A DNA stretch of 64,000 nucleotides, taken from the NCBI GenBank assembly GCA_022750055.1, contig JAKIWL010000002.1, positions 341,042 to 405,041 of the forward strand. Direction: 5' to 3'. The position numbers and the translations under genes are program-made. This DNA comes from Thermoplasmata archaeon (GTDB taxonomy: Archaea > Thermoplasmatota > Thermoplasmata > Lutacidiplasmatales > UBA184). Below the pieces are notes generated by a model. That model saw only the letters and a program-made list of their open reading frames with translations, did not search any database and was not told the DNA's origin. This document shows positions 311 through 17,456 of the stretch, in pieces. The stretch's first letter is position 1. Each line of letters starts with the position of its first letter.

Positions 311-1078
311 GTGATCGACGTCCCCGAACGCGTCTCCACGGGGATTCCCGGTCTCGACCGGATGCTCGGGGGCGGCCTGTGGCCGGGACGCCCCTATCTC
401 CTGACCGGAGGCACGGGGAGCGGCAAGACCCTCTTCGGGATGCGGTTCCTCCTGGAGGGGCTCGCCCACGGCGAGTCGGTCCTACTCGTCGCCGTCGACG
501 AACCGCCGAACGAGATCCTCGAGAATGTTCGCTCCTTTGGCTGGGACCTGTCGTCGGTCCGGACCCTGGACGCGAACCCCGGAACCCGCGCGATCCGTCG
601 GATGGCGGACGTGCAGGAGATCCGGGCGATGGGGGATGTCAAGCAGATGCGGGACATCTCCGCCGAGAGCCGCAAGTCCCAGGGCGACGACGACATCTCG
701 ATCCAGACGATCCACCTGAAGCTGCGCCATCAAATGGGTCAGACGAACTTCACGCGGGTCCTCGTCGATTCGATCACCTCCATCCGTCGCTTCGCGATGA
801 AATCGAGCCACGACCCGCAGGCCGATCGGACGGAGGTCCAATCGCTGCTACGATTCTTGAGCGAGCGCGGCGCGACGACGATGATCACAGCGACCCCCGG
901 TAACCCTCTGGTCCTCTCCGCGGAGGAGATCCTCGCCCGCGGCGAGATCCTCCTGACGCGCAAGTGGATCGGGGACCGCTCGGTCCGACAGGTCAAGATC
1001 GTCCGGATGCGAGGCTCCGCCCACGACCCCGAACGACGGCCCTTCGCGATCACCCGTCAGGGAATCGTCGTCGGATGA
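311..1078 (+). CDS. KaiC-like RecA-superfamily ATPase (single KaiC/RadA-like domain)
   Basis: N-terminus STGIPGLDRMLGGGLWPGRPYLLTGGTGSGKT (Walker A) followed by a LLVAVDE Walker B-like motif; classic archaeal KaiC/COG0467 layout. GTG start at 311; stop overlaps the next start (ATGA at 1075-1078). Confidence 0.8.
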   Translation: MIDVPERVSTGIPGLDRMLGGGLWPGRPYLLTGGTGSGKTLFGMRFLLEGLAHGESVLLVAVDEPPNEILENVRSFGWDLSSVRTLDANPGTRAIRRMADVQEIRAMGDVKQMRDISAESRKSQGDDDISIQTIHLKLRHQMGQTNFTRVLVDSITSIRRFAMKSSHDPQADRTEVQSLLRFLSERGATTMITATPGNPLVLSAEEILARGEILLTRKWIGDRSVRQVKIVRMRGSAHDPERRPFAITRQGIVVG

Positions 1079-1578
1079 CGGACCCCATCCGCCGGCCGGC
1101 CCGGCCGACGACGGCGCCGCGTCGTTGGCTTGTGAAAGAGGAGCCGTCGCACTTCTCCTTCGCCGACCTGGAGCGTGCGGTTCGGACCGAATGGGATTCG
1201 GTCCACAACCCGCTTGCGCAGCGCAACCTTCGTTCGATGCGACGAGGAGAACCCGTGCTGTACTACCATACCGGCTCGGAGAGAGCCGTCGTCGGCATCG
1301 CGGAGGTCGCGGACGCCCCTCACCCGGACCCTGGGGATCCCCGGGGTGCCTGGGCGGTGGCGATCCGAGCGCGCCGACCGCTGCGACGTTCGGTCCCGCT
1401 CGAGCGGCTGAAGCGGGAGGCGGTGTTCGAAGGTTCCTCCCTCGTTCGGATCGGCCGTCTCTCCGTCGTCGAGATCACCGGCCCGCAGTGGGAGCGCGTC
1501 CTCGCGCTCGAACTCGACGGGGCCCCGGACCGGGCACGGAATCCTCAACCCCACGCGTCCGGCCGGCGGCGCAGATAG
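1075..1578 (+). CDS. EVE domain (PUA-like) protein
   Basis: WLVKEEPSHFSFADLER...EWDSVHNPLAQRNLRSMRRGEPVLYYHTGSERAVVGIAEV...GRLSVVEITGPQWERV matches the EVE/thymocyte-nuclear-protein fold signature. The ATG at 1075 overlaps the KaiC stop (translational coupling); the ORF track gives 964 as an upstream start, which would overlap KaiC by more than 100 nt. Confidence 0.72.
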   Translation: MTDPIRRPARPTTAPRRWLVKEEPSHFSFADLERAVRTEWDSVHNPLAQRNLRSMRRGEPVLYYHTGSERAVVGIAEVADAPHPDPGDPRGAWAVAIRARRPLRRSVPLERLKREAVFEGSSLVRIGRLSVVEITGPQWERVLALELDGAPDRARNPQPHASGRRRR

Positions 1579-2819
1579 CGCGAGGCTTCGGCCTCGTACC
1601 GGGGGTCGACGTACACGGCGGCCGGCCAGGGGTTCTTCGGGCGCAGCGCGATCTCCCGCCACAGGCCGGCCGAGCGGAACGGATATGTCACCCGGCCGTC
1701 CTCGAGGATCCCGACGGACGCCCAATCGGATCGTTCCGGACCCCCGTCCGACAGGCCCGATAGGTCTAGGAGTACCGACCCGGGCCTCGCTCCAATCGCC
1801 TGCGCGACCGCATCCTCGCGGGACCGCCGAGCCGCCGGAGCGCGGTCGAGGGAACGAAGCGTCGCCCGCGATTCGCTAGACAAGTGGCGCCAGCCGTGCA
1901 CGCGTTTGTACAAGCGGCGCTCCCGGAGCGCACGGACGATCCTTGCCGAGTGGCCCCCTGCCGACTCGAGCGCGACGAGGAGGTCGGCGTCGGTCTGCGA
2001 AAGCAACGGGCGCGCCGCGCTCGGATAGCCCGAGAGCCGTTCCACGGCGGCCTGGGCCATGACCTCGGCGCTGCGCACCGTCTTGTGATAGTAGACGGCC
2101 GAATACATCAGGGACCGGCCCACCACGAACCCCTCGACGGCGGTGCGCCCCTTCTCGGCGAACACCAAACGACCGGCCCGGACCTGGATCGTATCGAGGA
2201 GGCGGGAAGCGTCGATCGCACCGTGGGCCACGCCCGTGTAGTGGGCATCGCGCTGTAGGTAGTCGATGCGGTCGGCGTCGATCGGGCCGTGGAGCAGGGC
2301 CCGCAGGGTGCGGTTCGGCTCCCGCCGGGAGGGCGGGTCGATCAGGTCGGCGATCGCTCGCGGCTCAAGCCCGTGCCTCTCGAGGATCTCCGGGATTCGC
2401 GACGGAGTCGCCCGCGCGTCCCCCTCGCCCCGGTCCGTTCCGAGCACGATGTCCCGCGACCGACCTTCGTGGCTCCGACCGAGGCACTCGAGCATCGGTG
2501 AATCTAGCGTGTGCGACAGTGGAGGGTGGCCGAGGTCGTGCAAGAGGCCCCCGATCCCGACGAGCTCGGCGTCCTCGACACCCAGGTCGAGCGCCGTTGC
2601 CATCTGGCGTGCGACCCAGTACACCCCCAGGGAGTGCTCGAGGCGGGTGTGATTCGCCCCGGGAAAGACGAGGTGGGCGAGGCCGGTCTGCCGGATCCCC
2701 CAGAGCCGTTGGAAGGCGGGATCTCCGATGAGCTCGAGGGGAGCGACCGAGAGGGTGAGGGAGCCGTGGATCGGGTCGAAGATCGACTTCTGTCCGCGTG
2801 CTCGCCGCCGCCCCGTCAC
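1545..2819 (-). CDS. HD-domain metal-dependent phosphohydrolase (COG1078, dGTPase/SAMHD1-like)
   Basis: IFDPIHGSLTL...FQRLWGIRQTGLAHLVFPGANHTRLEHSLGVYW...LLHDLGHPPLSH...DADRIDYLQRDAHYTGV; HD motif and conserved YLxRD. Its C-terminus overlaps the EVE C-terminus convergently. Confidence 0.8.
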   Translation of the reverse strand: MTGRRRARGQKSIFDPIHGSLTLSVAPLELIGDPAFQRLWGIRQTGLAHLVFPGANHTRLEHSLGVYWVARQMATALDLGVEDAELVGIGGLLHDLGHPPLSHTLDSPMLECLGRSHEGRSRDIVLGTDRGEGDARATPSRIPEILERHGLEPRAIADLIDPPSRREPNRTLRALLHGPIDADRIDYLQRDAHYTGVAHGAIDASRLLDTIQVRAGRLVFAEKGRTAVEGFVVGRSLMYSAVYYHKTVRSAEVMAQAAVERLSGYPSAARPLLSQTDADLLVALESAGGHSARIVRALRERRLYKRVHGWRHLSSESRATLRSLDRAPAARRSREDAVAQAIGARPGSVLLDLSGLSDGGPERSDWASVGILEDGRVTYPFRSAGLWREIALRPKNPWPAAVYVDPRYEAEASRYLRRRPDAWG

Positions 2820-3030
2820 GCAGCCCCCACTCTTCGAAGGAGATTACGGGTTTGCTCGGTTCGGCCACGGGGAAACCGAGCCCCCAACGCGCCGGTCGCG
2901 GAGGGGTAGGGAGGGCGTCGAGCGCGATCCGTCGGTCCGGAGAGCCCCGACCGGAGCACGCCGCGTCCGTTGCCGGTCAAGAGGGCCCCGATCGCGTCAC
3001 GACCCACCGGTCGGGTGCATCCGCTCGCGA

Positions 3031-3040
3031 AGATATTTAT
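3031..3040 (+). promoter_or_regulatory. TATA-box-like AT island (AGATATTTAT) about 27-35 nt upstream of the ATG at 3066
   Basis: Only AT-rich octamer in a roughly 70% GC intergenic region; spacing fits an archaeal leaderless promoter. Confidence 0.35.
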
Positions 3041-3065
3041 CGGCGCGCCGGGGTCCCTACCTCGA

Positions 3066-6000
3066 ATGGCTAGTTCTCCCGCAGCCACGAACGAGCGGGG
3101 CCCCTCCGAGGTTCCGATCGATGGCGCCCGCCGATTGTTCCGAGCCTCCGAGGAGGCGGAGGCGGCCCAGCAACGGGACCGCTACCTCGAGCAGCTGAAG
3201 GCCTACCTCGCGTTTGTGGAGGAGCGCAAGTCCGACCTCGGCCCGAACGGTGCCGAGATCGCCCACCAGCTCGACGGCACCGCGATGGCGTTCTACCGCC
3301 TCGGCCAGAACGAGCTCGCCAGTCGGTCCATCGACGTCGGCCTGACCTTCGTCGCCTCTCAGGCCTCGCTGCTGCATCACAAGGCCCTGATCCTGCTCGC
3401 GGCGAATCGCGAGGTGACGCAGGTCCTTCCGTTGCTAGAGGAGGCCGTTCGGGTCGACCCGAACGACAAGGCGATCTGGGGAACCCTCGGGGACGCGCTC
3501 AAGCTTCTGGGTCGCCCGGCCGACGCGACCGAGGCCTACCTGAAGGCCCAGGAGCTGGATGCCACCTCGACCCAGTTCGTCGAGAGGGCCTTGCGGCTGA
3601 GCCCCGGTCACCCCGGTGCGCAGCGACTTTGCCTCCAACTCGCCAAGGCCCACGGCGGGACCGAACAGGCGCTTCGTGCGTGCGAGGCCCTGCTCACCAC
3701 CTCGCCGAACGATCCGGAGCTCCTCTTCGCGCGCGTCGACCTCCTCGCCCAACTCGGTCAGATCGGCCCGGCGCTCGACGCCGTGGCGCCGGCCCGCACG
3801 GCCCGTCCCGGGGACCCCCGCCTCGCGGTGATCGCCGGTCGCCTTCACTTGGCGAGCGGGCACACCAAGGACGCCCTCGAGGAGTTTCGACTCGCCGCCG
3901 AGTCCTCGGGCCGGCTCGAGCCGGCCGAACTGGCCGAGCTCGCTGACCGCATCGACGCCACGGGGGAGCCCACCGAACTGGCGGTCAGCGTCCGGCAGAC
4001 GCTGCTCGAGCGGGAACCTCGCAACCTCGCCAACCTGCAGGCGCTCCGACTGCTGGCCCAGCGGACGCGTCGATTCGACCTCGGGATCACGGCCTGCCAG
4101 AAGATCCTCGAGATCTCCCCGGGCAACCTCGAGGCGACCCGGGCTCTGGCCGAGTTCGAACTGACGTCGGGTCGGACCGACGAGGGGTTCGGAACCTACC
4201 GGACCCTGGTGCGGTCGAACCCGCACGAAGCGGGGGAGATCCGCAAGGCGGCGGACGCGGCCCGGACCGCCGGTCGCGACGAGATCTTCCGAGAGTTCGC
4301 CCAGGCGGCCCTCGATGCCGACCCAGGCGACCTCGCCACGCGCGAACAGCTCGCGAAATCGTTCGCCTCGGCCGGCGAGCGAGACCGCGCGCTCCTCCTC
4401 TTCGAGGGCCTGATCGAGGCCAACCCGAAGGAGACCCGCTACCTGTGGGAAACGAAGAAGCTACTGTCCGAGGTCGGCCGGACCGCCGACCTCCCCAAGA
4501 TCTTGGACCACCTGTATGAGGCGGATCCGACGAACACCCGGCTCGCCTACGAGCGCGGCGCAGTCTACCTGGGACTGGCCCGGTCCTGCGCGGCAGGTTC
4601 GCCGGAGCGACAGGCCGCGGCCCGGACGTCCGTCGCCTCCTACGAGCGGGCGTCGGCCGACGCCAAGCTCGCGGAGGAGAGCCTCGTCGGCCTCGCCATG
4701 GCGGCCCGGCTCGGAGGCGACCACGCGCGAGCGACCCAGGCCTACGAGGAGTTCCTCGCCAAGCCCGGCCACGCCGGTAACGCGACGGTACTGAAGGAAC
4801 TCGGCCAGGCCCGCTTCGACGCCGGGCGCTACGTCGAGGCCGACCACGCCTTCCAGCAGGCCCTCGGCCTCGGATTGGAAGACCCGGACCTTCTCTGGGG
4901 AGCGGCGGAGACCCTCTCGGCGCTCGGTCTGGACGGACGCGCGCTCCAGCTCGTGGAGATCCTCGCCCGTCGGGATCCGGAGAACGTGCTCTACCAGCGT
5001 CGCCGAGGTCAACTGCTCTTGCGGACCGCGCGGCTCTCCGAGGGCGTGACGATCCTGCGGGCCGCAGCGGAGAAGGCACCGGGTGATCCCCTGGTGCAGT
5101 TCGACGTGGCCGACGCCCTACGGGCGGCAGGGGCCTACGCGGACGCGGTCGAGTTCTATCGGCTGGGCCTCGAAGCGGACCCGGCGAGCCGCCCGGCCCG
5201 GTTGGCCCTCGCCGAGACGTTCAACCTCGCCGGCCGGTACAACGAGGCGGTCCCCGTCGTCGACGCGCTCCTGAACCAGGACCCCAACGACCTGTCGGCC
5301 TGGCGGATCCGAGCCGATGCGTGCCGATCCCTCGGGCGGACCTCGGACCTCGAGTACTCTCTCAAGGCGACCCTCCTTTTGGACCCCACCGATTCCTCGG
5401 CCCTCGTGGAGAAGTACCGCCTCCATCTCTCCCAGGGGGCGAAGGCCGAGGCGTTCGAGTGCCTGTCCGATTTCCTCGAAGCCGGCAACCCCGACGCGGG
5501 CGATCCGGCCCTCCTCCTCGAGGCGGGCGACCTCGCGGCCGAGCTCGGCAAGACGGAGGACGCGAACCGATTCTACGAACGGGCCCAGGAGATCGATCCG
5601 GCCCAGGCGCTGCCCATCGGGATCCGGCGTTCGCGACTGCGCCTGTCCGCCGGGCGACCCGACCTCGCCCTCGAGGTCCTCGAGGCCTCCACCAGGCTCG
5701 CTCCGAGCCCACCCCTCCGGGCCAAGGAGGTCGCGTTGCTGAGGGCGGAGATCCTGATGGCCCTGGAGCGACCCGCGGAGGCGGAGGCGGTCTACCGCAC
5801 CGCGCTCGCCGAGGACCCCCGGGCGATCCCGGTCCTCCTCGGACTCGGGCGCGCGCTCCTTGACCAGGGCAAGCACGCCGACGCGAAGGCGCTCCTCTCC
5901 GATGCGATCCCGCTCGGCCCCCCCGTCTCCGGACTTTACCAGCTCCTCGCGGAGGCCGAGACGGGACTCGGCTCCCTCCCGAGCGCGATGGAAGTGATCC

Positions 6001-7553
6001 ACCAGGGGGTCACGGCGCTTCCGGAGGCCACGGAGCTGTGGACTCGGCTCGGAGAGATCGCGATCGCGCGCGAGGATTGGAACGAAGCGGCCCGGGCCTT
6101 CCGGGAAGCGATCCAGCGGGACGCGGCTAACCCCGACCTCCTGATGCGGGCCGGCTTCGTCGCCGAGCGACGCGCCCAGGGAACGGAGGCCCTCGCCCTC
6201 TACGAGCGAGCGACCCAGGTGGCCCCGACGAACAAGTTCGCCTGGTCGAACCGGGGCCTCGCGCTCCTCGCCGGGGGCCGCCCGGATGAGGCGACCGCGA
6301 GCTTCGATCGGGCGCTCGCCCTCGATTCGGACTTCGACGCGGCCCGACAGGGCAAGAAGGCCGCGATGGAACGGACCCGGGAGGCCCAGGTCGCCCGGTT
6401 CGGTCGGGAAGCCCTACTCCTCGAGGCGCGCCTGCACCGATCGGTGACCCGCAACGACCTGTTCGTGACGCTCCATGTACCGTTCGATTTCCTCGAACCG
6501 GTCCTGGCAACGCTCTCGAAGGACCCGAAGGTCGACCTAGCGAGCCTCTCCGAGGAGGAGCTGCACGCCTTGGAGACGGCCTCCTGTCAGGTCATCACGG
6601 CCGCGCTCGAGCGGCGAACCGATGGGCTGGAGCGGCGGGGTTTCTCTCTCGCCGACGTCGCCGCCCTGAGCCCGACGAATCGCTCGCTCCCCGAGATCCA
6701 ACGGCTGTTCGGGTACCTACGGGCCGTTCTGGAGGTCGAGCTTAGGCCGGAGAACCTCCAGCTCGCCCCGGACGTGGAGGAGCTAGCCCGGCGCGCGCTC
6801 TTGATGCCGCCCGACCAACGAACGCTGTTCCAACTGGTCCGCAACCTGCACGTTGGCTTGTTCAAAGCGCGCCTGATCAAGGTCGTGGAATCCTCCGGTT
6901 CGGCCGCGCACGCCCCGATCGCTTCCCTCGACTTCGGCGCATTCGCTCCCGACGCGGGTCCGGCCGCTCCGGCCCTCCTGCCCCCCTCGGAGGACCCGGA
7001 CCTCTTTCCCCCGTCGACTTCGCCCCATTCGCCTCACGCAGGGACTCGGGAAGCCCCCCGACACGCCCCGGCCCCCCCGTCGGCCCCTGAGGCCGGCCCC
7101 GCTCGACCCATGGCGGGGCACGCTCGATGCGTCGGCTGCGGAGGACTCGCGTCGATCGTCCACACTTGTGGCGCTCCGGTGTGCGCGCACTGCATCGTCG
7201 AATTCGGTACCTGTCCAAAGTGCCGGCAGCCGGCGACGCTGCCCGGTCCGGCCTCCGAGGCGGGCCCCCCAGCCGAACCGTTGGAATCGTCGCCCCCCGC
7301 GCACATCGTTGTCACCCACACCCCGAGCGGGACCCTCCATGCGCTGCGCCAGGCGGTATCTCGCACGAGGTCGCCCCCGGCTCGAGCCCCTCCACCCCCG
7401 AAGCCGCCGAGTGAGCCGGAATCCAAGGGCCGGTCGCCTGCCGCCCATGAGCCGGCGGCCCGACCCCACGCCCCGCCCTCCAAGGAAGAAAGCGCCCCCC
7501 CGCCCCACCCGACCCGGCCCAAACCGGCGGCGGACGACGAGCCTCGTCTGTAG
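3066..7553 (+). CDS. Giant TPR-repeat protein with a C-terminal Cys4 zinc ribbon and proline-rich tail
   Basis: About 1100 aa of repeating 34-aa TPR-like units (motifs such as AxxxLGxxxxxLGRxxEAxxxYxxALxLDP recur at least 20 times). This is followed by a non-TPR region around aa 1130-1300, then CVGCGGLASIVHTCGAPVCAHCIVEFGTCPKCRQP (four CxxC pairs), then a P-rich tail. The ORF is open from 2970; ATG 3066 is preferred because of the upstream TATA. Confidence 0.75.
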   Translation: MASSPAATNERGPSEVPIDGARRLFRASEEAEAAQQRDRYLEQLKAYLAFVEERKSDLGPNGAEIAHQLDGTAMAFYRLGQNELASRSIDVGLTFVASQASLLHHKALILLAANREVTQVLPLLEEAVRVDPNDKAIWGTLGDALKLLGRPADATEAYLKAQELDATSTQFVERALRLSPGHPGAQRLCLQLAKAHGGTEQALRACEALLTTSPNDPELLFARVDLLAQLGQIGPALDAVAPARTARPGDPRLAVIAGRLHLASGHTKDALEEFRLAAESSGRLEPAELAELADRIDATGEPTELAVSVRQTLLEREPRNLANLQALRLLAQRTRRFDLGITACQKILEISPGNLEATRALAEFELTSGRTDEGFGTYRTLVRSNPHEAGEIRKAADAARTAGRDEIFREFAQAALDADPGDLATREQLAKSFASAGERDRALLLFEGLIEANPKETRYLWETKKLLSEVGRTADLPKILDHLYEADPTNTRLAYERGAVYLGLARSCAAGSPERQAAARTSVASYERASADAKLAEESLVGLAMAARLGGDHARATQAYEEFLAKPGHAGNATVLKELGQARFDAGRYVEADHAFQQALGLGLEDPDLLWGAAETLSALGLDGRALQLVEILARRDPENVLYQRRRGQLLLRTARLSEGVTILRAAAEKAPGDPLVQFDVADALRAAGAYADAVEFYRLGLEADPASRPARLALAETFNLAGRYNEAVPVVDALLNQDPNDLSAWRIRADACRSLGRTSDLEYSLKATLLLDPTDSSALVEKYRLHLSQGAKAEAFECLSDFLEAGNPDAGDPALLLEAGDLAAELGKTEDANRFYERAQEIDPAQALPIGIRRSRLRLSAGRPDLALEVLEASTRLAPSPPLRAKEVALLRAEILMALERPAEAEAVYRTALAEDPRAIPVLLGLGRALLDQGKHADAKALLSDAIPLGPPVSGLYQLLAEAETGLGSLPSAMEVIHQGVTALPEATELWTRLGEIAIAREDWNEAARAFREAIQRDAANPDLLMRAGFVAERRAQGTEALALYERATQVAPTNKFAWSNRGLALLAGGRPDEATASFDRALALDSDFDAARQGKKAAMERTREAQVARFGREALLLEARLHRSVTRNDLFVTLHVPFDFLEPVLATLSKDPKVDLASLSEEELHALETASCQVITAALERRTDGLERRGFSLADVAALSPTNRSLPEIQRLFGYLRAVLEVELRPENLQLAPDVEELARRALLMPPDQRTLFQLVRNLHVGLFKARLIKVVESSGSAAHAPIASLDFGAFAPDAGPAAPALLPPSEDPDLFPPSTSPHSPHAGTREAPRHAPAPPSAPEAGPARPMAGHARCVGCGGLASIVHTCGAPVCAHCIVEFGTCPKCRQPATLPGPASEAGPPAEPLESSPPAHIVVTHTPSGTLHALRQAVSRTRSPPARAPPPPKPPSEPESKGRSPAAHEPAARPHAPPSKEESAPPPHPTRPKPAADDEPRL

Positions 7554-7621
7554 GAATCCGGCGCGGACCGCAGGACCGGGCGCCGCCGTGAGTCGGCGGC
7601 GCACGAAGTATAATCCGATAT

Positions 7622-8164
7622 ATGGGATGGCCCTTATCGAGTCGTATGGCCCAAGCGACGCCGGCCGCCCCGAGCCTTCTCCGAGGGGCGCTGGCCATCG
7701 TCCTGGCGGCGATCGCAGCGATCGTCTTCCTACTGGTCTACCTCGGCCTACCGGGGAACGACCACGTCGGGGCGTTGTTGTCGATCGGGGTCCTTTCCCT
7801 CGTCTTCGCGCTGGTGACCTACTTCGGCCAATCCCTGAGCAGCAGCGCCGGTCCGATCGAGGCGGTGTCCTGGGGCTTTACCGGTCTCGGCTTCGGTCTC
7901 CTGCTCTTGACGCTCGGCTTCGCCCCCGCGTCAACGATGTCCTTCACCGGCCGTCTGCTGGACTTCCTGGTCGTCCTCATCGGACTTGCCCTTGTCATCG
8001 TGATCGCCGGTTGGCGGTGGCGGGGTCGGGCGTTGGACACGGCTCGCGCGGCAGAGCACACGGCCTGGACCCGTCGCCCACCCACGAACGCACTCGATTA
8101 CCCGGCCGCGGGCCCATCGACCTCCGGATCGACGGTCCCTCCGAAGGAGGGCGCGCCGCGATGA
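7622..8164 (+). CDS. Small integral membrane protein (about 4 TM helices)
   Basis: Hydrophobic segments ALAIVLAAIAAIVFLLVYLGL, LLSIGVLSLVFALVTYF, GFTGLGFGLLLLTLGF, LDFLVVLIGLALVIVIAGW. An alternative ATG at 7646 fits the TATA-like element at 7606-7614 better. The stop overlaps the next start (ATGA). Confidence 0.6.
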   Translation: MGWPLSSRMAQATPAAPSLLRGALAIVLAAIAAIVFLLVYLGLPGNDHVGALLSIGVLSLVFALVTYFGQSLSSSAGPIEAVSWGFTGLGFGLLLLTLGFAPASTMSFTGRLLDFLVVLIGLALVIVIAGWRWRGRALDTARAAEHTAWTRRPPTNALDYPAAGPSTSGSTVPPKEGAPR

Positions 8165-8859
8165 TGACCCCACCCCCTCCTCCGGCCGGTCCCTCCCCCC
8201 CCGGGAGCGGACCTCCGCCACCGCCGCCAATGACTTGCGCGAAGTGCGGCGCGACCGTGAGCCCGTCGGCCCAATTCTGCCCCACTTGCGGAGCCCCGAT
8301 CTCCGCGACTCAGGCAGCGGCCCCCGGGGCACCCGTTGACATCCGCACTCGCGTCGACCAGGATCGGGGGATCCTCAAGCGGCTTCAACTGTTGATCCCG
8401 GGATACCGCGGGTATCGGCAGGGGGAGGACCTCCGCGAGGCGGACAGCGTGCTCCGTCTCCAGGTCGCCGACAGGGTCCACTCTGCGACCGCCCTGCTTA
8501 CCCAGCGCCGCCAGGCCCTGGCGACCGCAGGCCGCTACGACACCCTGAACGACCTCGCGCTCGCGATCGCGGACCTGACCCGTCTCGAGGGCGAGATCCG
8601 GCACGCCGAGCAGGGTTACACTGGGATCTCCCCGGCGCTGCGGGTCTCGGTGACCGGCCAGGACCAGCTCTACGAATACGACTATGGATTCGTGCTCGCG
8701 GCGAACGACCTTGTCACGACCCTCTCCGGCCTCCCCGACCCGAACGCGAACCCGGCGTCCGTCCAGCAAGCGACCGAGACGGTCCGCGACATGGTCGCGC
8801 GACTCGAAAAGGCGTTCCAGGCGCGCCTCACCACCATCCAGCAGGTCCAGGTCCCGTAG
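8161..8859 (+). CDS. Zinc-ribbon protein with a C-terminal helical domain (N-terminal P-rich linker plus CxxC..CxxC)
   Basis: MMTPPPPPAGPSPPGSGPPPPPPMTCAKCGATVSPSAQFCPTCGAPI followed by about 175 aa of predicted helical sequence (RLQVADRVHSATALLTQRRQALATAGRYDTLNDLALAIADLTRLEGEIRHAE...). The long ORF-track ORF 7168..8859 is coding only from this start. Confidence 0.6.
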   Translation: MMTPPPPPAGPSPPGSGPPPPPPMTCAKCGATVSPSAQFCPTCGAPISATQAAAPGAPVDIRTRVDQDRGILKRLQLLIPGYRGYRQGEDLREADSVLRLQVADRVHSATALLTQRRQALATAGRYDTLNDLALAIADLTRLEGEIRHAEQGYTGISPALRVSVTGQDQLYEYDYGFVLAANDLVTTLSGLPDPNANPASVQQATETVRDMVARLEKAFQARLTTIQQVQVP

Positions 8860-8889
8860 AGACTCCAGGGGATCCGAAGGAAACATCCA

Positions 8890-10053
8890 ATGGTTACCAA
8901 CAACCCCATTCCGGCGAAGGGCGGCAGTCTGATCGGCGCGACGACCATAAACTGGGAGGACGCCTACAAGGGTGACAACGTCATGTGGCGCGTCCCCCGG
9001 AACATCCACTGGGGAGACAACGTCGTGGTCCGGGAGGACGAGACGGCGGTCTTCTTCCGCGACGGCAAGGTCCTTGCGTATCTCGACAAACCCGATCGAT
9101 ACGCCCTCACGAGCCTGAACACCCAACTCCTCGGGGGCCTGGTCCAGGCGCTGTCCGGGGCCCGGCAGGAGGCCGAGGTCTACTATCTGCAGCGACGCAC
9201 GTTCGATGGCAAGTTCGGGAGCCAGGAGCCGTACGTGTTCCGGGATCCGGACTTCGGCCTCGTGAGCCTCCGGGTGTTCGGCGACTACCGGTGGCGGGTC
9301 GCGGGACCGGACCTGTTCATCAATCAGTTCGTCGGCACGTTCGGCGCCGCGACGACCTCCGATGTGGAGGACCGCCTGAGGGACCAGATGGTGCTACTCA
9401 CCTACACGACCCTCGGCCAGCTCAAGGACCAGGGGATGCGCGTGACGGATCTCGCCATGAAGCTGACCACGATCGAGCAGGCGGTCCTGGGCCAAGCGCC
9501 GACGCACTTCAGCCAATTCGGCCTTGAGGTTCAGCAACTGCAGGGCCTCTCCGTGAACCTCCCCGACGAGGTGCAGAAGGCCGTCAACACGCGCTCCCAG
9601 CTGGGCGTCCTCGGCGTGAACTACATGCAATACCAGGCCGGTCAGGCGATGACGACCGCGGCGGCCAACACCTCCGGCGGGGCCGGAGCGTTCGCCGGCG
9701 CTGGAGTGGGCCTGGGAGCGGGGCTCGGCGTCGGATACGGCATGAGCGGGGCGATGATGGGCGCCTACGGCGCGAACACCGGCCCGTCCTCCCCCTGCCC
9801 GAAGTGCTCGACGATGGTTCCCGCCGGGGTCCGGTTCTGCCCGTCGTGCGGCAACGCGATGGGACCCGCCGGCGCGGCGCCGTCGGGTCCGCCCTGTCCG
9901 AAGTGCGGCAGCCCCACCGCCGCCGGGGCCAAGTTCTGCCCGAACTGCGGCGAGTCTCTCGTTCCCCCGCCCGGCAAGACCTGCCCCAAGTGCAACGCGG
10001 CCGTGGCGGGAAACGCCAAGTTCTGCCCGAGCTGCGGTAGCGCGATTCCGTAG
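8890..10053 (+). CDS. SPFH/Band-7-like protein of the YdjI/COG4260 ('virion core protein-like') family with three tandem C-terminal zinc ribbons
   Basis: N-terminal INWEDAYKGDNVMWRV...VVREDETAVFFRDGKV...FRDPDFGLVSLRVFGDYRWRVAGPDLFINQFVG...LPDEVQKAVNTRSQLGVLG..YMQYQAGQAM, a Gly-rich GAGVGLGAGLGVGYG stretch, then CPKCS..CPSCG, CPKCG..CPNCG, CPKCN..CPSCG. This is the architecture of Bacillus subtilis YdjI (pspA-ydjGHI operon). SD-like GAAGGA lies upstream of the ATG. Confidence 0.8.
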   Translation: MVTNNPIPAKGGSLIGATTINWEDAYKGDNVMWRVPRNIHWGDNVVVREDETAVFFRDGKVLAYLDKPDRYALTSLNTQLLGGLVQALSGARQEAEVYYLQRRTFDGKFGSQEPYVFRDPDFGLVSLRVFGDYRWRVAGPDLFINQFVGTFGAATTSDVEDRLRDQMVLLTYTTLGQLKDQGMRVTDLAMKLTTIEQAVLGQAPTHFSQFGLEVQQLQGLSVNLPDEVQKAVNTRSQLGVLGVNYMQYQAGQAMTTAAANTSGGAGAFAGAGVGLGAGLGVGYGMSGAMMGAYGANTGPSSPCPKCSTMVPAGVRFCPSCGNAMGPAGAAPSGPPCPKCGSPTAAGAKFCPNCGESLVPPPGKTCPKCNAAVAGNAKFCPSCGSAIP

Positions 10054-10074
10054 CGCGACGGACGGTCGGACCAC

Positions 10075-11067
10075 ATGAACTGTCCGAACTGCGGAGCGAC
10101 GCTCCCGGACGGAGCCCGGTTCTGCTACTCCTGCGGGCGCCCGCTCGGCGGCGGGGCCGCAGGAGGCATGCCGGCTCCGCCGCCCCCGCCGCCCCCACCC
10201 CCGACGAGCGCGCCCTCGGGGGGCGGGGCCGCGACGGCTCCCGTGAACTGTCCGAACTGCGGCGCCCCCCTGAAGCCGCTCTTCGGCGAGATGGTCATCA
10301 CCTGCGAGTACTGCGGAGCCTCCGTCACCCTCGGAGGGTCCGGCTGGAAGGAGATCAACAAGCATACCCTGCTCCTCCCGAAGGTCACCACCCCGGATCA
10401 GGCGCTCGCGACGGTCCAGAGGTTCCTCGACCAGGGATTCTTTCACCGCAAGGACTTCGAGGAATCCGAGGTCGTCGAGCAGAAGCTCTCCTTCGTCCCG
10501 TTCTGGATCGTGCCGACGGCCGCGACGACCTCTTTTACCTACACGGACGTGGCCGTCAGCGTCGGCAGCACGGTCGCGACGGTCGCGGCGGCCGAGCTAT
10601 TGGGGAGCGCCCTCGGCGGGGGCCGCCGGGGAGGATTCATTCCCATTCCCATGATGATGGGCTCTCCCGTGAACTCGACGCGCCAGGACTCGATCTCGGG
10701 CCAGTACGAGTTCCCGGTCGTCGCGGTCAAGAGCATGAGCGAGTACCAGCCCAAGGACTACAAGTTCCGGCTCGAGGACCGCACTTTCTTCGACCAGAAA
10801 GCGATCCCGAAGGGCTCCCCGGTCCTGAACGGGGACCTCGGCGAGGATGCTGCCCAGCACGCGGCCCGCGCCTTCGTCATGCAACTGCAGTCCGAGGCGG
10901 CCCACAAGAAGCACTCCATGGTGAGCCAGGTGAACACCCAAGTGGAGGTCTCCGAGAGCGAGCTCCTCCACGTGCCGGTGTGGTACTACGTGCTCAATCG
11001 GAAGGGAGTGAAGACGGCCGTGCTCATCGACTCCCACGCCGGCGAAGTGATCCGCACCGTCGGCTGA
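10075..11067 (+). CDS. Double zinc-ribbon protein with a C-terminal domain of unknown function (YdjG-like architecture)
   Basis: MNCPNCGATLPDGARFCYSCG, a P-rich linker (PPPPPPPPP), then NCPNCGAPL...CEYCGAS, then a roughly 230-aa globular region (FVPFWIV...VPVWYYVLNRKGVKTAVLIDSHAGEV). Confidence 0.7.
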   Translation: MNCPNCGATLPDGARFCYSCGRPLGGGAAGGMPAPPPPPPPPPTSAPSGGGAATAPVNCPNCGAPLKPLFGEMVITCEYCGASVTLGGSGWKEINKHTLLLPKVTTPDQALATVQRFLDQGFFHRKDFEESEVVEQKLSFVPFWIVPTAATTSFTYTDVAVSVGSTVATVAAAELLGSALGGGRRGGFIPIPMMMGSPVNSTRQDSISGQYEFPVVAVKSMSEYQPKDYKFRLEDRTFFDQKAIPKGSPVLNGDLGEDAAQHAARAFVMQLQSEAAHKKHSMVSQVNTQVEVSESELLHVPVWYYVLNRKGVKTAVLIDSHAGEVIRTVG

Positions 11068-11124: not shown

Positions 11125-12639
11125 TCATCGCATCGATCCCCGGCGGCTCTCCCGCACTCGGATCTCCTCTTCGTAGAACCGCCGGGCAAACTCCCCCTCC
11201 TCGCGGCCGATCTCGATCGGCCCCGTCCCCGGCTCGGCAAAGTAGCGCACGAGGGCCGCCGCGCTCGCGAGCTTGACGGCCCGGGACTTGAGCCTCGGGG
11301 AGAAGGCCGGGTTCGGGGTCCGCGCGAGCACCTTCTCCGACACCTCCCGGAGGGATCGGTAGATGCCGGGGTCGAGGCGGACCGCCCGGGCCGGGAACCG
11401 GTGCGCGACGAGCGGGTGCCGGGTCTCGATGGCGTGGACGAGGGTCAGATGGTCCCGGAGCGCCGCCGCCTCCGAGAAGTCGATCTCGCCGAGGTCGAGT
11501 CGTTCGGCGCTCGCCTCCACCGAACGGAACCGCTCCCGCGTCATCGGGTGGAAGCGCAGCAGCATTCGGTCCTCCAACGCGGAGAAGTTCGGGTCGTTGA
11601 ACGTGGTCCAGAAGTCCGAGGGACCTGCCGTGCGGACGTTGTAGTTGACCGAGAGGAACGAGCGGAACGTGTACGGGCCGACCACCCCGAGGGTCGTCTC
11701 CCACTTCACCTCGCGCTGCTCCATCACGAGCTTGAGCGGCTCGACCATCCCGCGGTACTTGAACCAGTCATTGAACTCCGGGACGATGAAATTGAACGTC
11801 CGCCCCGCGTAGGACGCGCCGACACGCAGGAACTGGACCGGCGTGATCCCGCCGCAGTACCGGTTGCGCCCGGGGAGGCCGTGCGCGGGGACCCCGGAAC
11901 GTGGGTTCCCCCGGATCATGTCGTCGATCGAGAACGTCTTGCCGGTCCCCGGGGGCCCGAAGAGGGCGAGGTGGAATCCCGTCGAGCCGGTGGGTCGACC
12001 CGTCGGCGCGAGCAAGGGCACATCGGCGAGGGCGTACTGTTGGAGTAGGGAGACGAGCGAATCGGAGAACAACGTTTCGCCGAAGAGCGAGCGTAGGTAG
12101 TCCGCGAGGTGGCCGATCGATAGGCTGCGTCCGAATCGTACAGTCGCCTCGAGCCGGTGGTCGACGATCGCTCTCAGCGCGTCGAGGAACTCCGTGTCCA
12201 TCGAGCGGATCTCGGCCTCCTCATCCGGCACCGGTTGGAGCGCGGCGGGCCCCGCGCTCTCGCTGCGCCAGAGCTCCGTCTCGAGCAGGCGTTCGAGCTC
12301 CTCCGGATACGGGAGCTGGTAGGTCCGGTCCCTGCGCCCTTCGGGCCGGTCGTCGAGCAGTCCGCGCCGCTTCAGGCGCGAGAGGATCCGAGCCGGGTCG
12401 GCGAAGACGCGCTCCGAAGCCATTCGGGCTCGCAGGCTGGACAGACGGAACGTGGCCAGGCGCCCCCGGCCGCTTGCGGGCCGATTTCGGGTGCTCTCAC
12501 GGAGGAGGGCAACGAGGATCCGGACGACCGGGACCTCCTCCGCCTCGATCTCGATCCCGCGTCCGGCCGCCACGGCGAACTCGGGTAGGCGGCCCCGCTC
12601 GTATAGCCGTATGCGGGGAGGCGGCCACGAAGGGTGCAC
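11125..12639 (-). CDS. P-loop NTPase of unknown function (Walker A GPPGTGKT around aa 225, atypical AAA-like)
   Basis: LALFGPPGTGKTFSIDDMI is a Walker A motif, and a possible Walker B lies in NFIVPEFNDW. No canonical AAA SRH/IIFIDEID motif was recognised. A long N-terminal domain precedes the P-loop. The start is uncertain (alternative ATG near 12423, MASERVF). Confidence 0.6.
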   Translation of the reverse strand: MHPSWPPPRIRLYERGRLPEFAVAAGRGIEIEAEEVPVVRILVALLRESTRNRPASGRGRLATFRLSSLRARMASERVFADPARILSRLKRRGLLDDRPEGRRDRTYQLPYPEELERLLETELWRSESAGPAALQPVPDEEAEIRSMDTEFLDALRAIVDHRLEATVRFGRSLSIGHLADYLRSLFGETLFSDSLVSLLQQYALADVPLLAPTGRPTGSTGFHLALFGPPGTGKTFSIDDMIRGNPRSGVPAHGLPGRNRYCGGITPVQFLRVGASYAGRTFNFIVPEFNDWFKYRGMVEPLKLVMEQREVKWETTLGVVGPYTFRSFLSVNYNVRTAGPSDFWTTFNDPNFSALEDRMLLRFHPMTRERFRSVEASAERLDLGEIDFSEAAALRDHLTLVHAIETRHPLVAHRFPARAVRLDPGIYRSLREVSEKVLARTPNPAFSPRLKSRAVKLASAAALVRYFAEPGTGPIEIGREEGEFARRFYEEEIRVRESRRGSMR

Positions 12640-12662
12640 GCGGTTTCGCGTCCGGACCCTGG

Positions 12663-12670
12663 TTTATCTA
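12663..12670 (+). promoter_or_regulatory. TATA-like element (TTTATCTA) about 22-29 nt upstream of the Hjc GTG start
   Basis: AT-rich octamer in a GC-rich divergent intergenic region between the NTPase and Hjc. Confidence 0.35.
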
Positions 12671-12691
12671 TCCCAGCGAGAACGGCCACTC

Positions 12692-13243
12692 GTGCCCCCC
12701 ACCGGGTCCAACTACGAACGCGAGCTGAAGGGGCTCCTCCAGGGCGAGCCCGAATCCCTCGACCGGTACACTCGCGCGCTCTCGGCCAGCGAGCGGTCCC
12801 GCCTTCGGGACACTCCGACCACCCCGTTCCTCGTCGTGCGCGCCGCGGGCTCCTTCGGATTCGACCTCGTCGCCTTGCGGAGCGAATTCGCCTTCCCGGT
12901 CGAGGTGAAGGCCTCCTCGAGCGACACGATCCATTTCTCGGCCGCGAGCGGGAGGGCCGACAAGCAGCTCTACGCGCACCGGCGCACAGTCGAGCGGGTG
13001 GGGCTGATCGTCGTGTACGCCTACCGACGCCTCGGGCATCGGGGGGGCGACCCCTGGCGGCTCTATGCCACAGGGACCAGTCGGTCGGCGGGCCGGTCGG
13101 CGTTCTTGCTCGGTCGACTCCCACCGGTGGAGACGACGCGAGAAGGAAACGCCGTCCTACGTTGGGAGTCGGGATTGCCGCTGAGCCGGTTCCTCGAACT
13201 GGTCAGCCTCCTCACCACCCCGGTGGCGGCTCCCGCCGCATGA
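12692..13243 (+). CDS. hjc: Holliday junction resolvase Hjc (archaeal)
   Basis: GSNYERELKGLLQGE...PFLVVRAAGSFGFDLVALRSEFAFPVEVKASSSDTIHFS matches Hjc catalytic motifs (E..., D in FDLVA, EVK). GTG start at 12692 is proposed (the ORF is open from 12452; another ATG lies at 12611). The stop overlaps the thiolase ATG (ATGA). Confidence 0.7.
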   Translation: MPPTGSNYERELKGLLQGEPESLDRYTRALSASERSRLRDTPTTPFLVVRAAGSFGFDLVALRSEFAFPVEVKASSSDTIHFSAASGRADKQLYAHRRTVERVGLIVVYAYRRLGHRGGDPWRLYATGTSRSAGRSAFLLGRLPPVETTREGNAVLRWESGLPLSRFLELVSLLTTPVAAPAA

Positions 13244-14379: not shown

Positions 14380-14714
14380 ACGCCGGCCCGCGCGACATCG
14401 TCATCGCCCGATGCGAAAGTTGCCACGGCCGGTTCCTCCCTCGGCCCGGCGCGTGTCCCCGATGCGGCTCGACCGCCGTGACCCCCCAGCCCATCCCGCC
14501 CTCGGGGGAGATCCTCGCGGCCACGGAACTCTGGGTTCCGGCGACGGGATGGCCCACCCCCCACCGACTTGCCCTCGTCGGCCTCTCGGAGGACGTCCGT
14601 GTGCTCGCCCAGGTCGTGGGCCCGCTCCCGAAGATCGGCTCTCCGGTCCGGGTGGAGCAGGTCGGCGAACGCTACGTCATCCACACCGGGCCCCCTTCGG
14701 ACCCGCCGGCGTAA
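14376..14714 (+). CDS. DUF35 OB-fold/zinc-ribbon protein (thiolase partner or scaffold)
   Basis: IARCESCHGRFLPRPGACPRCGST (rubredoxin-like Zn ribbon) followed by an OB-fold-like segment; the ATG overlaps the thiolase stop (ATGA). Confidence 0.8.
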   Translation: MNAGPRDIVIARCESCHGRFLPRPGACPRCGSTAVTPQPIPPSGEILAATELWVPATGWPTPHRLALVGLSEDVRVLAQVVGPLPKIGSPVRVEQVGERYVIHTGPPSDPPA

Positions 14715-14963
14715 CGCGGGGAGGGGGAATCTCCGGACGGCGGGAACCCCGCCGCCCCTTTGAACCCCCGAGGTGAAACCACCACTGGATTAGCAATCCA
14801 GCGCCTTACCGGGCTGGGCTATCCCCGCGCGGCGCGGCTGACCGCGTTCGGCCCTTTTAACCTGGCGGTGGGCGGCGTGCCCGCGACGGTCGCCCGTCCC
14901 GAGCGTTCCGATTCGCGACGAAGGTCTGATGAGCGGACGCCGTGCTCCCCCGACGAGGGAGCC

Positions 14964-15926: not shown

Positions 15927-15978
15927 TCCGATCGGGTGCCTCCTCCGGGATCTTCGGGTCTCCCGAGGGCGAATCGGA

Positions 15979-17455: not shown

Positions 17456-17456
17456 C

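What the first reader, a model, noticed from the sequence alone, without database searches (positions are those of the whole stretch)
2970..11067. Co-directional cluster of five zinc-ribbon-tagged proteins: a YdjGHI-like membrane module without PspA, expanded by a giant TPR protein
Five consecutive genes on the + strand each carry Cys4 zinc ribbon(s) joined to their other domains by proline-rich low-complexity linkers:
- a roughly 1500-aa TPR scaffold ending in a Zn ribbon;
- a 4-TM protein;
- a Zn-ribbon plus helical-domain protein (ATGA-coupled to the TM protein);
- an SPFH/COG4260 protein with three tandem Zn ribbons;
- a double-Zn-ribbon protein.
The SPFH protein has the architecture and motifs of Bacillus subtilis YdjI, and the double-ribbon protein resembles YdjG. 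In Firmicutes these form the pspA-ydjGHI membrane-stress operon, where YdjI localises the ESCRT-III-like PspA. No PspA/IM30 homolog is recognisable here. Instead the module is joined to a TPR giant and extra ribbon proteins. This combination looks like an undescribed archaeal membrane-remodelling or envelope-stress assembly, or alternatively a ribbon-mediated multiprotein scaffold.
Basis: partly seen in the sequence, partly recalled or inferred. Interest (0 to 1): 0.8.

Follow-up and report, generated by a model that had tools for sequence, protein, structure and literature searches.

The report
Archaeal SPFH membrane-scaffold gene cluster
An uncultured soil archaeon carries a conserved gene cluster built around a YdjI-type SPFH membrane-scaffold protein, and its least-understood gene belongs to a large unnamed family of helical proteins that sat next to this type of SPFH gene in every bacterial and archaeal genome sampled.

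Summary
The five co-directional genes exist at the stated coordinates in a Thermoplasmata (UBA184/Lutacidiplasmatales-type) genome. Four carry conserved Cys-rich zinc modules; the 4-TM protein has no cysteine.

- g4 is a Band_7_1 SPFH protein with three invariant zinc ribbons. It is homologous over its full length to B. subtilis YdjI (BLASTP 1e-16).
- g5 is homologous to YdjG (hhalign 97%).
- YdjH/TPM and PspA are absent from the window and from about 87 related archaeal loci.

So "YdjGHI-like without PspA" is partly supported.

The main new result concerns g3, the zinc-ribbon plus helical protein. Its helical domain belongs to a large unannotated family (1146 representative clusters, no Pfam model, no PDB relative). 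In all 10 contexts sampled outside this order, in bacteria and archaea, it lies immediately upstream of a Band_7_1 gene. In two bacterial loci PspA sits between the two genes.

The conserved core is 4-TM, helical protein, SPFH with ribbons, YdjG-like protein. It recurs with overlapping genes in a 37%-GC relative. The TPR giant and g3's ribbon occur only in the UBA184-type loci.

The most likely function is a membrane-associated SPFH scaffold for membrane maintenance or stress sensing. This is inferred, not shown. I rate it a new variant of a known kind.

The parts
3066..7553 (+). g1: TPR giant of about 1495 aa. The ORF opens at TTG 2970; ATG 3066 is the likely start. It has no TM segment. It is an accessory found only in the UBA184-type loci.
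   Evidence: Strong TPR Pfam hits across aa ~170-1137. There is no hydrophobic segment. Orthologs of 1474-1499 aa sit in the same position. It is absent from L082-L085, L087 and L088. It has no BLASTP similarity to the large proteins upstream of the module in L093/L094.
7128..7223 (+). g1 C-terminal Cys-rich zinc module, CxxC-x7-H-x-C-x4-CxxC-x6-CxxC, flanked by Pro-rich low-complexity sequence.
   Evidence: The motif is conserved in the orthologs in L002, L005 and L007. Pfam does not recognise it.
7622..8164 (+). g2: small 4-TM membrane protein of 180 aa with no cysteine and a Pro-rich cytoplasmic tail.
   Evidence: Hydropathy shows 4 hydrophobic segments and 0 Cys. It has no Pfam family. Equivalent small 4-TM ORFs lie directly upstream of the g3 homolog in L084, L087 and L092.
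8161..8859 (+). g3: 232 aa. N-terminal Pro-rich stretch, a Cys4 ribbon (nt 8236-8289), a linker, and a 5-helix domain (aa ~58-229, nt 8332-8847). Its start overlaps the g2 stop (ATGA).
   Evidence: Zn_Ribbon_1 E 1.8e-7. The 4 Cys are invariant in 54 homologs. The AF2 model has pLDDT 79 with helices 61-78, 82-122, 129-151, 164-189 and 198-227. There is a weak NCBIfam LIMLP_15305 hit below the cut-off. A profile search finds 1146 representative clusters.
8890..10053 (+). g4: SPFH protein of the Band_7_1/YdjI family, 387 aa. SPFH domain at nt 8989-9606, a Gly/Ala-rich linker, and three Cys4 ribbons at 9796-9849, 9895-9948 and 9982-10035.
   Evidence: PF13421 E 1.8e-33. BLASTP against B. subtilis YdjI E 1e-16. 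It is 75-90% identical in more than 100 Thermoplasmata clusters. The 12 Cys are invariant. No TM segment.
10075..11067 (+). g5: YdjG-like protein of 330 aa. Two ribbons (nt 10081-10134 and 10249-10314) joined by a poly-Pro linker, then two alpha+beta units separated by a moderately hydrophobic helix (aa ~159-181).

Best explanation
The cluster encodes a cytoplasmic-face, membrane-associated scaffold built around a soluble SPFH protein of the Band_7_1/YdjI(SamI) family (g4).

Proposed roles, all inferred:
- g4 is held at the membrane by a small 4-TM protein (g2) and a YdjG(SamG)-like double-ribbon protein (g5).
- g4 works with an obligatory helical-bundle partner (g3).
- The giant TPR protein with a zinc module (g1) is an extra assembly platform found only in the UBA184-type loci.
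- The ribbons on flexible Pro-rich tethers act as multivalent interaction or clustering modules. Their number varies between lineages: none detected by the precomputed Pfam hits on one archaeal SPFH protein (L092), one on B. subtilis YdjI, three here; present or absent on g3.

By analogy with B. subtilis YdjGHI/SamGHI, the complex would monitor or stabilise the membrane under envelope stress. In these archaea it does so without a PspA encoded at the locus.

Shown here: the homologies, the conserved cysteines, the conserved gene order, and the pairing of the g3 family with Band_7_1 in every bacterial and archaeal context sampled.
Inferred: physical contacts, membrane localisation and physiological role.
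For: - g4 is Band_7_1 and matches YdjI over its full length.
- g5 matches YdjG at 97%. Its fold gives weak hits to YpeB/PepSY-type domains, which fits the published description of YdjG as two ribbons plus a YpeB-related domain (PMC11237479).
- In B. subtilis, YdjG/H anchor the soluble YdjI at the membrane (PMC8581546). [quoted passage not shown]
- The order g2-g3-g4-g5 is kept in about 70 UBA184-type loci. It is also kept in unrelated genomic contexts:
  - L084: 4-TM, g3, g4, with HerA and trp-gene flanks.
  - L087: 37% GC, four overlapping genes.
  - A-plasma: g3-like, SPFH, YdjG-like.
- The g3 helical domain is a family of 1146 representative clusters. In 10 of 10 sampled contexts outside UBA184 it lies next to a Band_7_1 gene (8 contexts) or one gene away from it (2 contexts).
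- In L090 and L095, PspA lies between the g3-like gene and Band_7_1. This ties the family to PspA/SPFH systems.
- g4 is very strongly conserved, at 59-90% identity across the orders sampled.
Against: - There is no experimental datum for any of these proteins.
- The YdjH/TPM component, described in B. subtilis as the likely anchor of YdjI/PspA, is missing.
- g5 lacks YdjG's C-terminal TM. Its internal hydrophobic helix is only borderline (mean hydropathy about 1.5) and poorly modelled.
- Within UBA184 the flanking genes are conserved too, so adjacency of g1 there is weak evidence of function.
- PspA or ESCRT-III could be encoded elsewhere in the genome. Only 64 kb was visible.
- The g3 fold gives only generic helical-bundle matches.
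Confidence: 0.55

Rival explanations
1. The functional unit is only g2-g5, or even just the g3-g4 dyad. On this view the TPR giant g1 is an unrelated neighbour kept by general synteny in one order.
For: - g1 is absent from L082-L085, L087, L088/89 and all bacterial contexts.
- In L007/L031 a 155-aa gene and an opposite-strand Na+/H+ exchanger separate g1 from g2.
- The flanking HD, 504-aa and thiolase genes are equally conserved in UBA184, so adjacency there is not specific.
- g1 shows no similarity to the large proteins upstream of the module in L093/L094.
Against: - g1 is adjacent and co-directional in nearly every UBA184-type locus with enough flank.
- It shares the zinc-module-on-Pro-rich-tether design of g3-g5.
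- Non-homologous TPR-containing proteins also lie upstream of the dyad in L092, L093 and (weakly) L094. This suggests recurrent recruitment of TPR scaffolds.
Confidence: 0.4
2. g3 is a functional replacement for PspA. On this view it is an ESCRT-III-like, membrane-remodelling helical polymer that g4 recruits to the membrane.
For: - g3 sits immediately upstream of the Band_7_1 gene at a locus that encodes no PspA.
- It is all-helical, with a long hairpin-like pair (82-122 and 129-151).
Against: - hhalign of the g3 family against PspA gives 0.1-0.4% probability.
- Foldseek against the PDB finds nothing at E < 0.037 and no PspA/Vipp1.
- In L090 and L095 the g3-like protein and a bona fide PspA are encoded side by side, so they are not substitutes there.
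Confidence: 0.12
3. The SPFH protein forms a cage that regulates a membrane protease or transporter encoded elsewhere. This is the HflK/C-FtsH or stomatin-NfeD type of quality control, not stress sensing.
For: This is the general behaviour of SPFH families (own knowledge; the HflK/C 24-mer cage is cited in PMC11188069). g4 is extremely conserved, as expected for an oligomeric cage.
Against: - No protease, NfeD or transporter is conserved in the cluster.
- Band_7_1 proteins lack the TM anchor of the cage-forming families.
- The experimentally studied family member, YdjI, acts with YdjG/H and PspA, not with a protease.
Confidence: 0.1
4. The cluster is an anti-virus or conflict system, with TPR and zinc-ribbon sensors and a membrane effector.
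For: Large TPR proteins and ribbon-rich proteins occur in some defence systems (own knowledge). The first B. subtilis papers link PspA to phage stress.
Against: - There are no PADLOC hits apart from a spurious E 0.003 TPR match.
- The locus sits in a fixed, housekeeping context and is conserved across an entire order at high identity, unlike defence islands.
- It has no nuclease, NTPase or toxin domain.
Confidence: 0.03

Closest known systems
Bacillus subtilis pspA-ydjGHI (renamed pspA-samGHI) membrane-stress operon
   Same: It has a soluble Band_7_1 SPFH protein with a low-complexity linker and a C-terminal zinc ribbon (YdjI matches g4, E 1e-16). It has a double-ribbon protein with a YpeB-like alpha/beta domain (YdjG matches g5, 97%). 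Both are co-directional operons with membrane partners.
   Different: - The window has no PspA and no TPM-domain YdjH.
- It has extra genes that B. subtilis lacks: the g3 helical-bundle family, a small 4-TM protein and a TPR giant.
- It has three ribbons on the SPFH protein instead of one.
- g5 has an internal hydrophobic helix where YdjG has a C-terminal one.
- The host is an archaeon.
Bacterial g3-like / PspA / Band_7_1-ribbon operons found here (Chloroflexia L090; L095)
   Same: They have the same g3-family helical domain and the same Band_7_1 plus double zinc ribbon protein in one operon.
   Different: PspA is present between the two genes. The g3-like domain is fused to a long low-complexity tail (L090) or to DUF4178 (L095) and has no ribbon. 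DUF2207 and other membrane proteins take the place of g2 and g5.
SPFH/coiled-coil/zinc-ribbon protein of Methanobacteriales 'Meth_adaptin' ESCRT loci (Makarova et al. 2024, PMC11188069)
   Same: It is an archaeal SPFH protein carrying a zinc ribbon, encoded with membrane-dynamics genes. The authors themselves draw the parallel to YdjI.
   Different: Those loci contain Vps4, ESCRT-III and adaptin-like proteins, none of which occurs here. Whether that SPFH protein belongs to Band_7_1 was not tested, because no sequence was available.
Classical SPFH operons (HflK/C-FtsH, stomatin-NfeD, flotillin-YqiJ/YuaF)
   Same: They pair an SPFH-domain scaffold with a small membrane partner gene.
   Different: They belong to a different SPFH subfamily (Band_7, PF01145) with its own TM anchor. 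They have no ribbons, no g3-like partner and no YdjG-like partner.
PspAA domain of Ravi et al. 2024 (PMC11237479)
   Same: [quoted passage not shown] The g3 family also has invariant R and D residues.
   Different: PspAA is described as three helices plus a four-stranded sheet, in a dyad with PspA. g3 is a 5-helix domain of about 175 aa paired with Band_7_1. The two were not compared directly because no PspAA sequence was available.

Membership tests
Band_7_1 SPFH (PF13421; COG4260; YdjI/SamI) | Pfam PF13421 match above the gathering score | tested here: met
   116.4 bits against a cut-off of 24, E 1.8e-33, aa 34-239. B. subtilis YdjI scores 146.9 bits on the same model.
Band_7_1 SPFH (PF13421; COG4260; YdjI/SamI) | Full-length similarity to the characterised member YdjI, including the low-complexity linker and C-terminal zinc ribbon | tested here: met
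   BLASTP E 1e-16, 21% identity, aa 17-358 vs 9-323. g4 has three ribbons; YdjI has one.
Band_7_1 SPFH (PF13421; COG4260; YdjI/SamI) | Soluble, with no TM anchor of its own | tested here: met
   There is no hydrophobic segment in g4 or YdjI by a Kyte-Doolittle scan.
Band_7_1 SPFH (PF13421; COG4260; YdjI/SamI) | Recruits PspA to the membrane and depends on YdjG/H for localisation | not testable with these tools
   This is an experimental property (PMC8581546).
YdjG/SamG family | Two N-terminal zinc ribbons | tested here: met
   The ribbons are at aa 3-24 and 59-83. The eight Cys are invariant or nearly so in 59 homologs.
YdjG/SamG family | Sequence homology extending beyond the ribbons into the following domain | tested here: met
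   hhalign 97%, E 8e-11, aa 1-148 vs 5-144, including the helix and the (V/I)PFW strand. BLASTP E 3e-8.
YdjG/SamG family | YpeB-related / NTF2-like alpha+beta domain (as described in PMC11237479) | tested here: inconclusive
YdjG/SamG family | C-terminal TM anchor | tested here: not met
   g5 ends in a beta unit. Its only hydrophobic helix is internal (aa ~159-181), borderline in hydropathy, and has pLDDT ~55.
YdjH/SamH (TPM_phosphatase, PF04536) | A TPM domain protein in the cluster | tested here: not met
   None of g1-g5 hits TPM. g2 vs YdjH shows no similarity. tblastn with YdjH finds nothing in the window or the archaeal loci.
PspA/IM30/ESCRT-III | A PspA_IM30 or Snf7 homolog in the cluster | tested here: not met
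   - Pfam scans of g1-g5 give no PspA_IM30 or Snf7 hit.
- phmmer and tblastn with two PspA sequences find nothing in the window or the archaeal loci.
- g3 family vs PspA by hhalign gives 0.1-0.4%.
- Foldseek against the PDB gives no PspA/Vipp1.
- The rest of the genome was not visible.
NCBIfam NF047596 (LIMLP_15305 family) | Score above the curated cut-off (210 bits) | tested here: not met
   g3 scores 32.8 bits, E 5.8e-8, covering positions 13-170 of 175. It is a homologous domain but not a member of that equivalog. The broader family was defined here by profile search.
Known anti-phage defence systems (PADLOC) | Any component matching a defence-system model | tested here: not met
   The only hit is a spurious E 0.003 match of the TPR region.

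The most novel reading that the evidence does not exclude
The unnamed g3-type helical-bundle protein and the Band_7_1 SPFH-ribbon protein form a widespread, undescribed two-component membrane-maintenance core in bacteria and archaea. Around this core, lineage-specific anchors (4-TM proteins, YdjG-like proteins, DUF2207), scaffolds (TPR giants) and effectors (PspA) are exchanged. On this reading the well-studied B. subtilis PspA-YdjGHI system is one derived variant. The Thermoplasmata cluster would show the core working without a locus-encoded ESCRT-III-type protein.
Probability: 0.35. Interest if true: 0.75.

Novelty: new variant of a known kind. Interest (0 to 1): 0.55.

Why it matters
SPFH proteins organise membranes in all domains of life, but the Band_7_1/YdjI branch has been studied only in B. 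subtilis, where it is read as an adaptor for the ESCRT-III-like PspA.

This locus, and the contexts recovered around it, show three things:
- The YdjI-YdjG pair exists in archaea without PspA at the locus.
- The partner seen in every g3-family context sampled is an unannotated helical-bundle family, not PspA. It has more than 1000 representative clusters, no Pfam model and no solved structure.
- Membrane anchors and TPR scaffolds are swapped between lineages.

This gives a concrete, testable candidate for what Band_7_1 proteins do independently of PspA. That question was raised by the 2026 SamGHI preprint, which reports PspA to be dispensable for the developmental phenotype. It also puts a provisional functional label on a large family of 'hypothetical proteins'.

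Tried and rejected
- g2 as a YdjH counterpart: no similarity, and no TPM domain anywhere.
- Defence system: no PADLOC support.
- PDB sequence relatives of g3, g4 and g5: none useful.
- A Pfam family for the g3 domain: none in 56 members.
- Literature on LIMLP_15305: the tag is only listed as a neighbour of an sRNA in a Leptospira peroxide transcriptome, with no functional information.
- Homology between g1 and the large TPR-like proteins upstream of the dyad in L093/L094: none.
- The AFDB fold library was unavailable, so only PDB libraries were searched.
- The first attempt at a genome scan with a very diverse g3 alignment failed for lack of a conserved stretch. The successful scan returned only the best 80 of 270 relatives, all Thermoplasmata. 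Distant contexts therefore had to be sampled one by one (12 look-ups).
- Identity of g3 with the 'PspAA' or 'PspAB' domains of Ravi et al. could not be tested, because no sequences were available.
Full report
**What is there**

The window has about 68-70% G+C. Its proteins match MAGs named 'Thermoplasmata archaeon' and 'Lutacidiplasmatales'. One NCBI protein is 100% identical to g3 and comes from a 474,674-bp contig.

Five + strand ORFs occupy 2970-11067. They are bracketed by an HD-domain gene on the - strand (1545-2819) and a conserved 504-aa ORF on the - strand (11125-12639). Intergenic gaps are 68, -4 (ATGA overlap), 30 and 21 nt.

- **g1.** A TPR protein (TPR_19 E 1e-49). It probably starts at ATG 3066, giving about 1495 aa, like orthologs of 1474-1499 aa. 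Near its C-terminus it has a conserved motif, CxxC-x7-H-x-C-x4-CxxC-x6-CxxC, followed by a Pro-rich tail.
- **g2.** Four hydrophobic segments, no cysteine, no family.
- **g3.** One ribbon plus a helical domain.
- **g4.** Band_7_1 (E 1.8e-33) plus three ribbons.
- **g5.** Two ribbons plus a domain of about 240 aa with no Pfam match.

All the cysteines of g3, g4 and g5 are invariant or nearly so in 54, 36 and 59 homologs respectively. Seven of the nine CxxC...CxxC motifs in long ORFs of the whole window fall in 7128-10314.

The observation therefore holds, with three corrections. Four genes of five are zinc-tagged. The g1 module is not a plain Cys4 ribbon. g1 does not end in that module.

**Test of the YdjGHI comparison**

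I recovered the real B. subtilis operon from two metagenome contigs, using a cloning primer printed in PMC8581546. Pfam confirms YdjG as a TFIIB-type ribbon protein, YdjH as TPM_phosphatase, YdjI as Band_7_1 plus one ribbon, and PspA as PspA_IM30.

- g4 aligns with YdjI over nearly its whole length (E 1e-16).
- The g5 profile aligns with YdjG at 97% probability. The alignment runs through both ribbons, the following helix and the (V/I)PFW strand.
- g5 lacks YdjG's C-terminal TM. It has an internal, borderline-hydrophobic helix instead.
- g2 is unrelated to YdjH, and no TPM domain occurs anywhere nearby.
- No PspA is detectable in the window or in about 87 related archaeal loci, roughly 1.1 Mb in total.

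**Synteny**

Four large contigs show the same five genes in order. A scan of one genome per species with a g3-domain profile found 270 relatives. The best 80 were all Thermoplasmata.

A tblastn table over these loci shows the order HD(-), g1, g2, g3, g4, g5 in nearly every locus with enough flank. The flanking genes are conserved too, so this alone shows only order-wide synteny.

The informative cases are those where the context differs:
- **L007/L031.** Two genes, including an opposite-strand Na+/H+ exchanger, separate g1 from g2.
- **L082-L085** (L084 flanked by HerA and trp genes). These keep g3 and g4. In L084, the only one of the four inspected upstream, a 4-TM ORF precedes g3.
- **L087** (37% G+C). 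Four overlapping genes: a 118-aa 4-TM protein, a 177-aa g3-like protein without a ribbon, an SPFH protein with three ribbons, and a YdjG-like protein.
- **Thermoplasmatales 'A-plasma'.** g3-like (185 aa, no ribbon), SPFH with ribbons, and a clear g5 ortholog.

The conserved core is therefore g2-g3-g4-g5. The TPR giant and the ribbon on g3 were found only in the UBA184-type loci.

**The g3 family, the main new result**

A profile of the helical domain alone finds 1146 representative clusters (50% identity level) at E <= 1e-3, and 580 at E <= 1e-10. Most are stand-alone proteins of 170-185 aa.

Conserved motifs are IPGFRGYxxxEDxRxADxxLR, RHAxxGYSG, LYEYD and F..R.

The family has:
- no Pfam model;
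- no PDB sequence relative;
- only a sub-threshold match to NCBIfam's LIMLP_15305 family, for which the literature gives no function.

Named members come from Thermoplasmatales, Thermoplasmatota, Anaerolineales, Chloroflexia and unclassified bacteria.

Outside UBA184, in every one of 10 sampled contexts the gene lies directly upstream of a Band_7_1 gene or one gene away:

| Locus | Organism | Arrangement |
|---|---|---|
| L084 | Thermoplasmata | 4-TM, g3, g4 |
| L087 | Thermoplasmatota, 37% GC | 4-TM, g3-like, SPFH, YdjG-like |
| L088/89 | A-plasma | g3-like, SPFH, YdjG-like |
| L091 | bacterium | dyad |
| L092 | archaeon | one TPR protein, three YdjG-like paralogs (the one tested matched at 92.6%), a 114-aa 4-TM protein, g3-like, Band_7_1 |
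| L093 | not determined | TPR proteins, 169-aa protein, g3-like, Band_7_1 |
| L094 | not determined | 1028-aa protein, g3-like, Band_7_1 |
| L096 | archaeon | dyad |
| L090 | Chloroflexia | DUF2207, g3-like, PspA, Band_7_1 with double zinc ribbon |
| L095 | not determined | g3-like fused to DUF4178, PspA, Band_7_1 (cut by the contig end) |

g3 is therefore neither an 'extra ribbon protein' nor a PspA substitute. It is the partner found next to this SPFH family in every context sampled, and it can coexist with PspA.

**How it most likely works**

*Shown:* the homologies, the conserved zinc ligands, the translational coupling, and the conserved co-occurrence.

*Inferred:*
- g4 is a soluble SPFH scaffold, like YdjI. 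It is held at the inner face of the membrane by g2 and g5, as YdjG/H hold YdjI.
- g3 binds or regulates g4.
- The ribbons on Pro-rich tethers give multivalent contacts. Their number varies between lineages, so they are probably accessory.
- g1 adds a large TPR platform in UBA184.

By analogy with SamGHI, the function would be membrane-integrity sensing or stabilisation. SamGHI acts as a membrane stress-sensor complex, and PspA is reported to be dispensable for its developmental phenotype. I give this 0.55.

*Rivals:*
- g1 is an unrelated neighbour (0.4 for that sub-claim).
- g3 is an ESCRT-III analogue (0.12).
- g4 is a protease-regulating cage (0.1).
- The cluster is a defence system (0.03).

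**Comparison with what is known, and novelty**

Band_7_1 with a ribbon, the YdjG architecture and the Firmicute operon are all published. An SPFH-ribbon protein in Methanobacteriales ESCRT loci has also been noted.

I found no description of three things in the searchable literature:
- the pairing of the g3 family with Band_7_1;
- the four-gene archaeal core without PspA or TPM;
- the TPR-giant version.

One caveat remains. The 'PspAA' and 'PspAB' domains of Ravi et al. could not be compared for lack of sequences. The published description of PspAA (three helices plus a four-stranded sheet) does not fit g3.

**Verdict**

This is a real, conserved system: a new variant of a known kind, the YdjI-type SPFH module. 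It is of moderate interest, and that interest rests mainly on the previously unrecognised partner family.

Noticed in passing
window 14739-14828 (-): Rfam reports a tRNA-like match just above the gathering score (31.2 vs 29 bits, E 0.015). ARAGORN does not call it. It overlaps the start of the 3-hydroxyacyl-CoA dehydrogenase ORF (14760-15926), so it is probably spurious.
   Followed up: no
window 11125-12639 (-): A 504-aa ORF convergent with g5 has no Pfam family. It is conserved at 51-88% identity directly downstream of the cluster in most related loci.
   Followed up: partly
window 12634-19049: A fatty-acid beta-oxidation-like set lies downstream and is syntenic in relatives. It comprises a thiolase, a DUF35/ChsH2 OB-fold protein with a rubredoxin-like ribbon, a 3-hydroxyacyl-CoA dehydrogenase, a dienelactone hydrolase and an AMP-binding ligase. 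The 12634-14379 ORF as listed probably merges an upstream Hjc-like gene region with the thiolase.
   Followed up: no
window 964-2819: An EVE-domain ORF (964-1578, +) and an HD plus HD_assoc_2 gene (1545-2819, -) lie upstream. The HD gene is divergent from g1 in almost all related loci.
   Followed up: no
L001 12245-15519; L002 12238-15558; L005 11096-17556: In several relatives, large secreted-type proteins (PKD repeats, Kelch beta-propellers, lactonase-like) are inserted between g5 and the 504-aa ORF. The window lacks them. This is a variable slot at the 3' end of the cluster.
   Followed up: no
L001 5240-8585: In the 2.18-Mb chromosome-level assembly (OY970259.1) the TPR giant is split into two ORFs and g2 is shortened. 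These are probably frameshift errors of the assembly rather than biology.
   Followed up: partly
P0441, P0480; L095 345-1361: Some bacterial members of the g3 family are fused to DUF4178. PMC11237479 lists this beta-rich domain as a component of PspA/polyamine operons. In L095 the fusion protein is followed by PspA and Band_7_1.
   Followed up: partly
L092 2905-7733: An archaeal contig (49% GC) carries three YdjG-like paralogs, one apparently split into 147-aa and 98-aa ORFs. Upstream of the g3-like/Band_7_1 dyad it also has a small TPR protein and a 114-aa 4-TM protein. The parts are the same as in the window but in a different order.
   Followed up: partly
L089 5665-5841: In A-plasma a separate 58-aa zinc-ribbon ORF lies just upstream of the ribbon-less g3-like gene. 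It may be a split form of the ribbon that is fused to g3 in the window.
   Followed up: no
window 7622-8164 and orthologs: The cytoplasmic tail of the 4-TM protein has a short semi-conserved motif in several orthologs: ALDYPAA in the window and L002, AFSYHTA in L005, SAYPPTH in L084. It may be a short linear docking motif.
   Followed up: no
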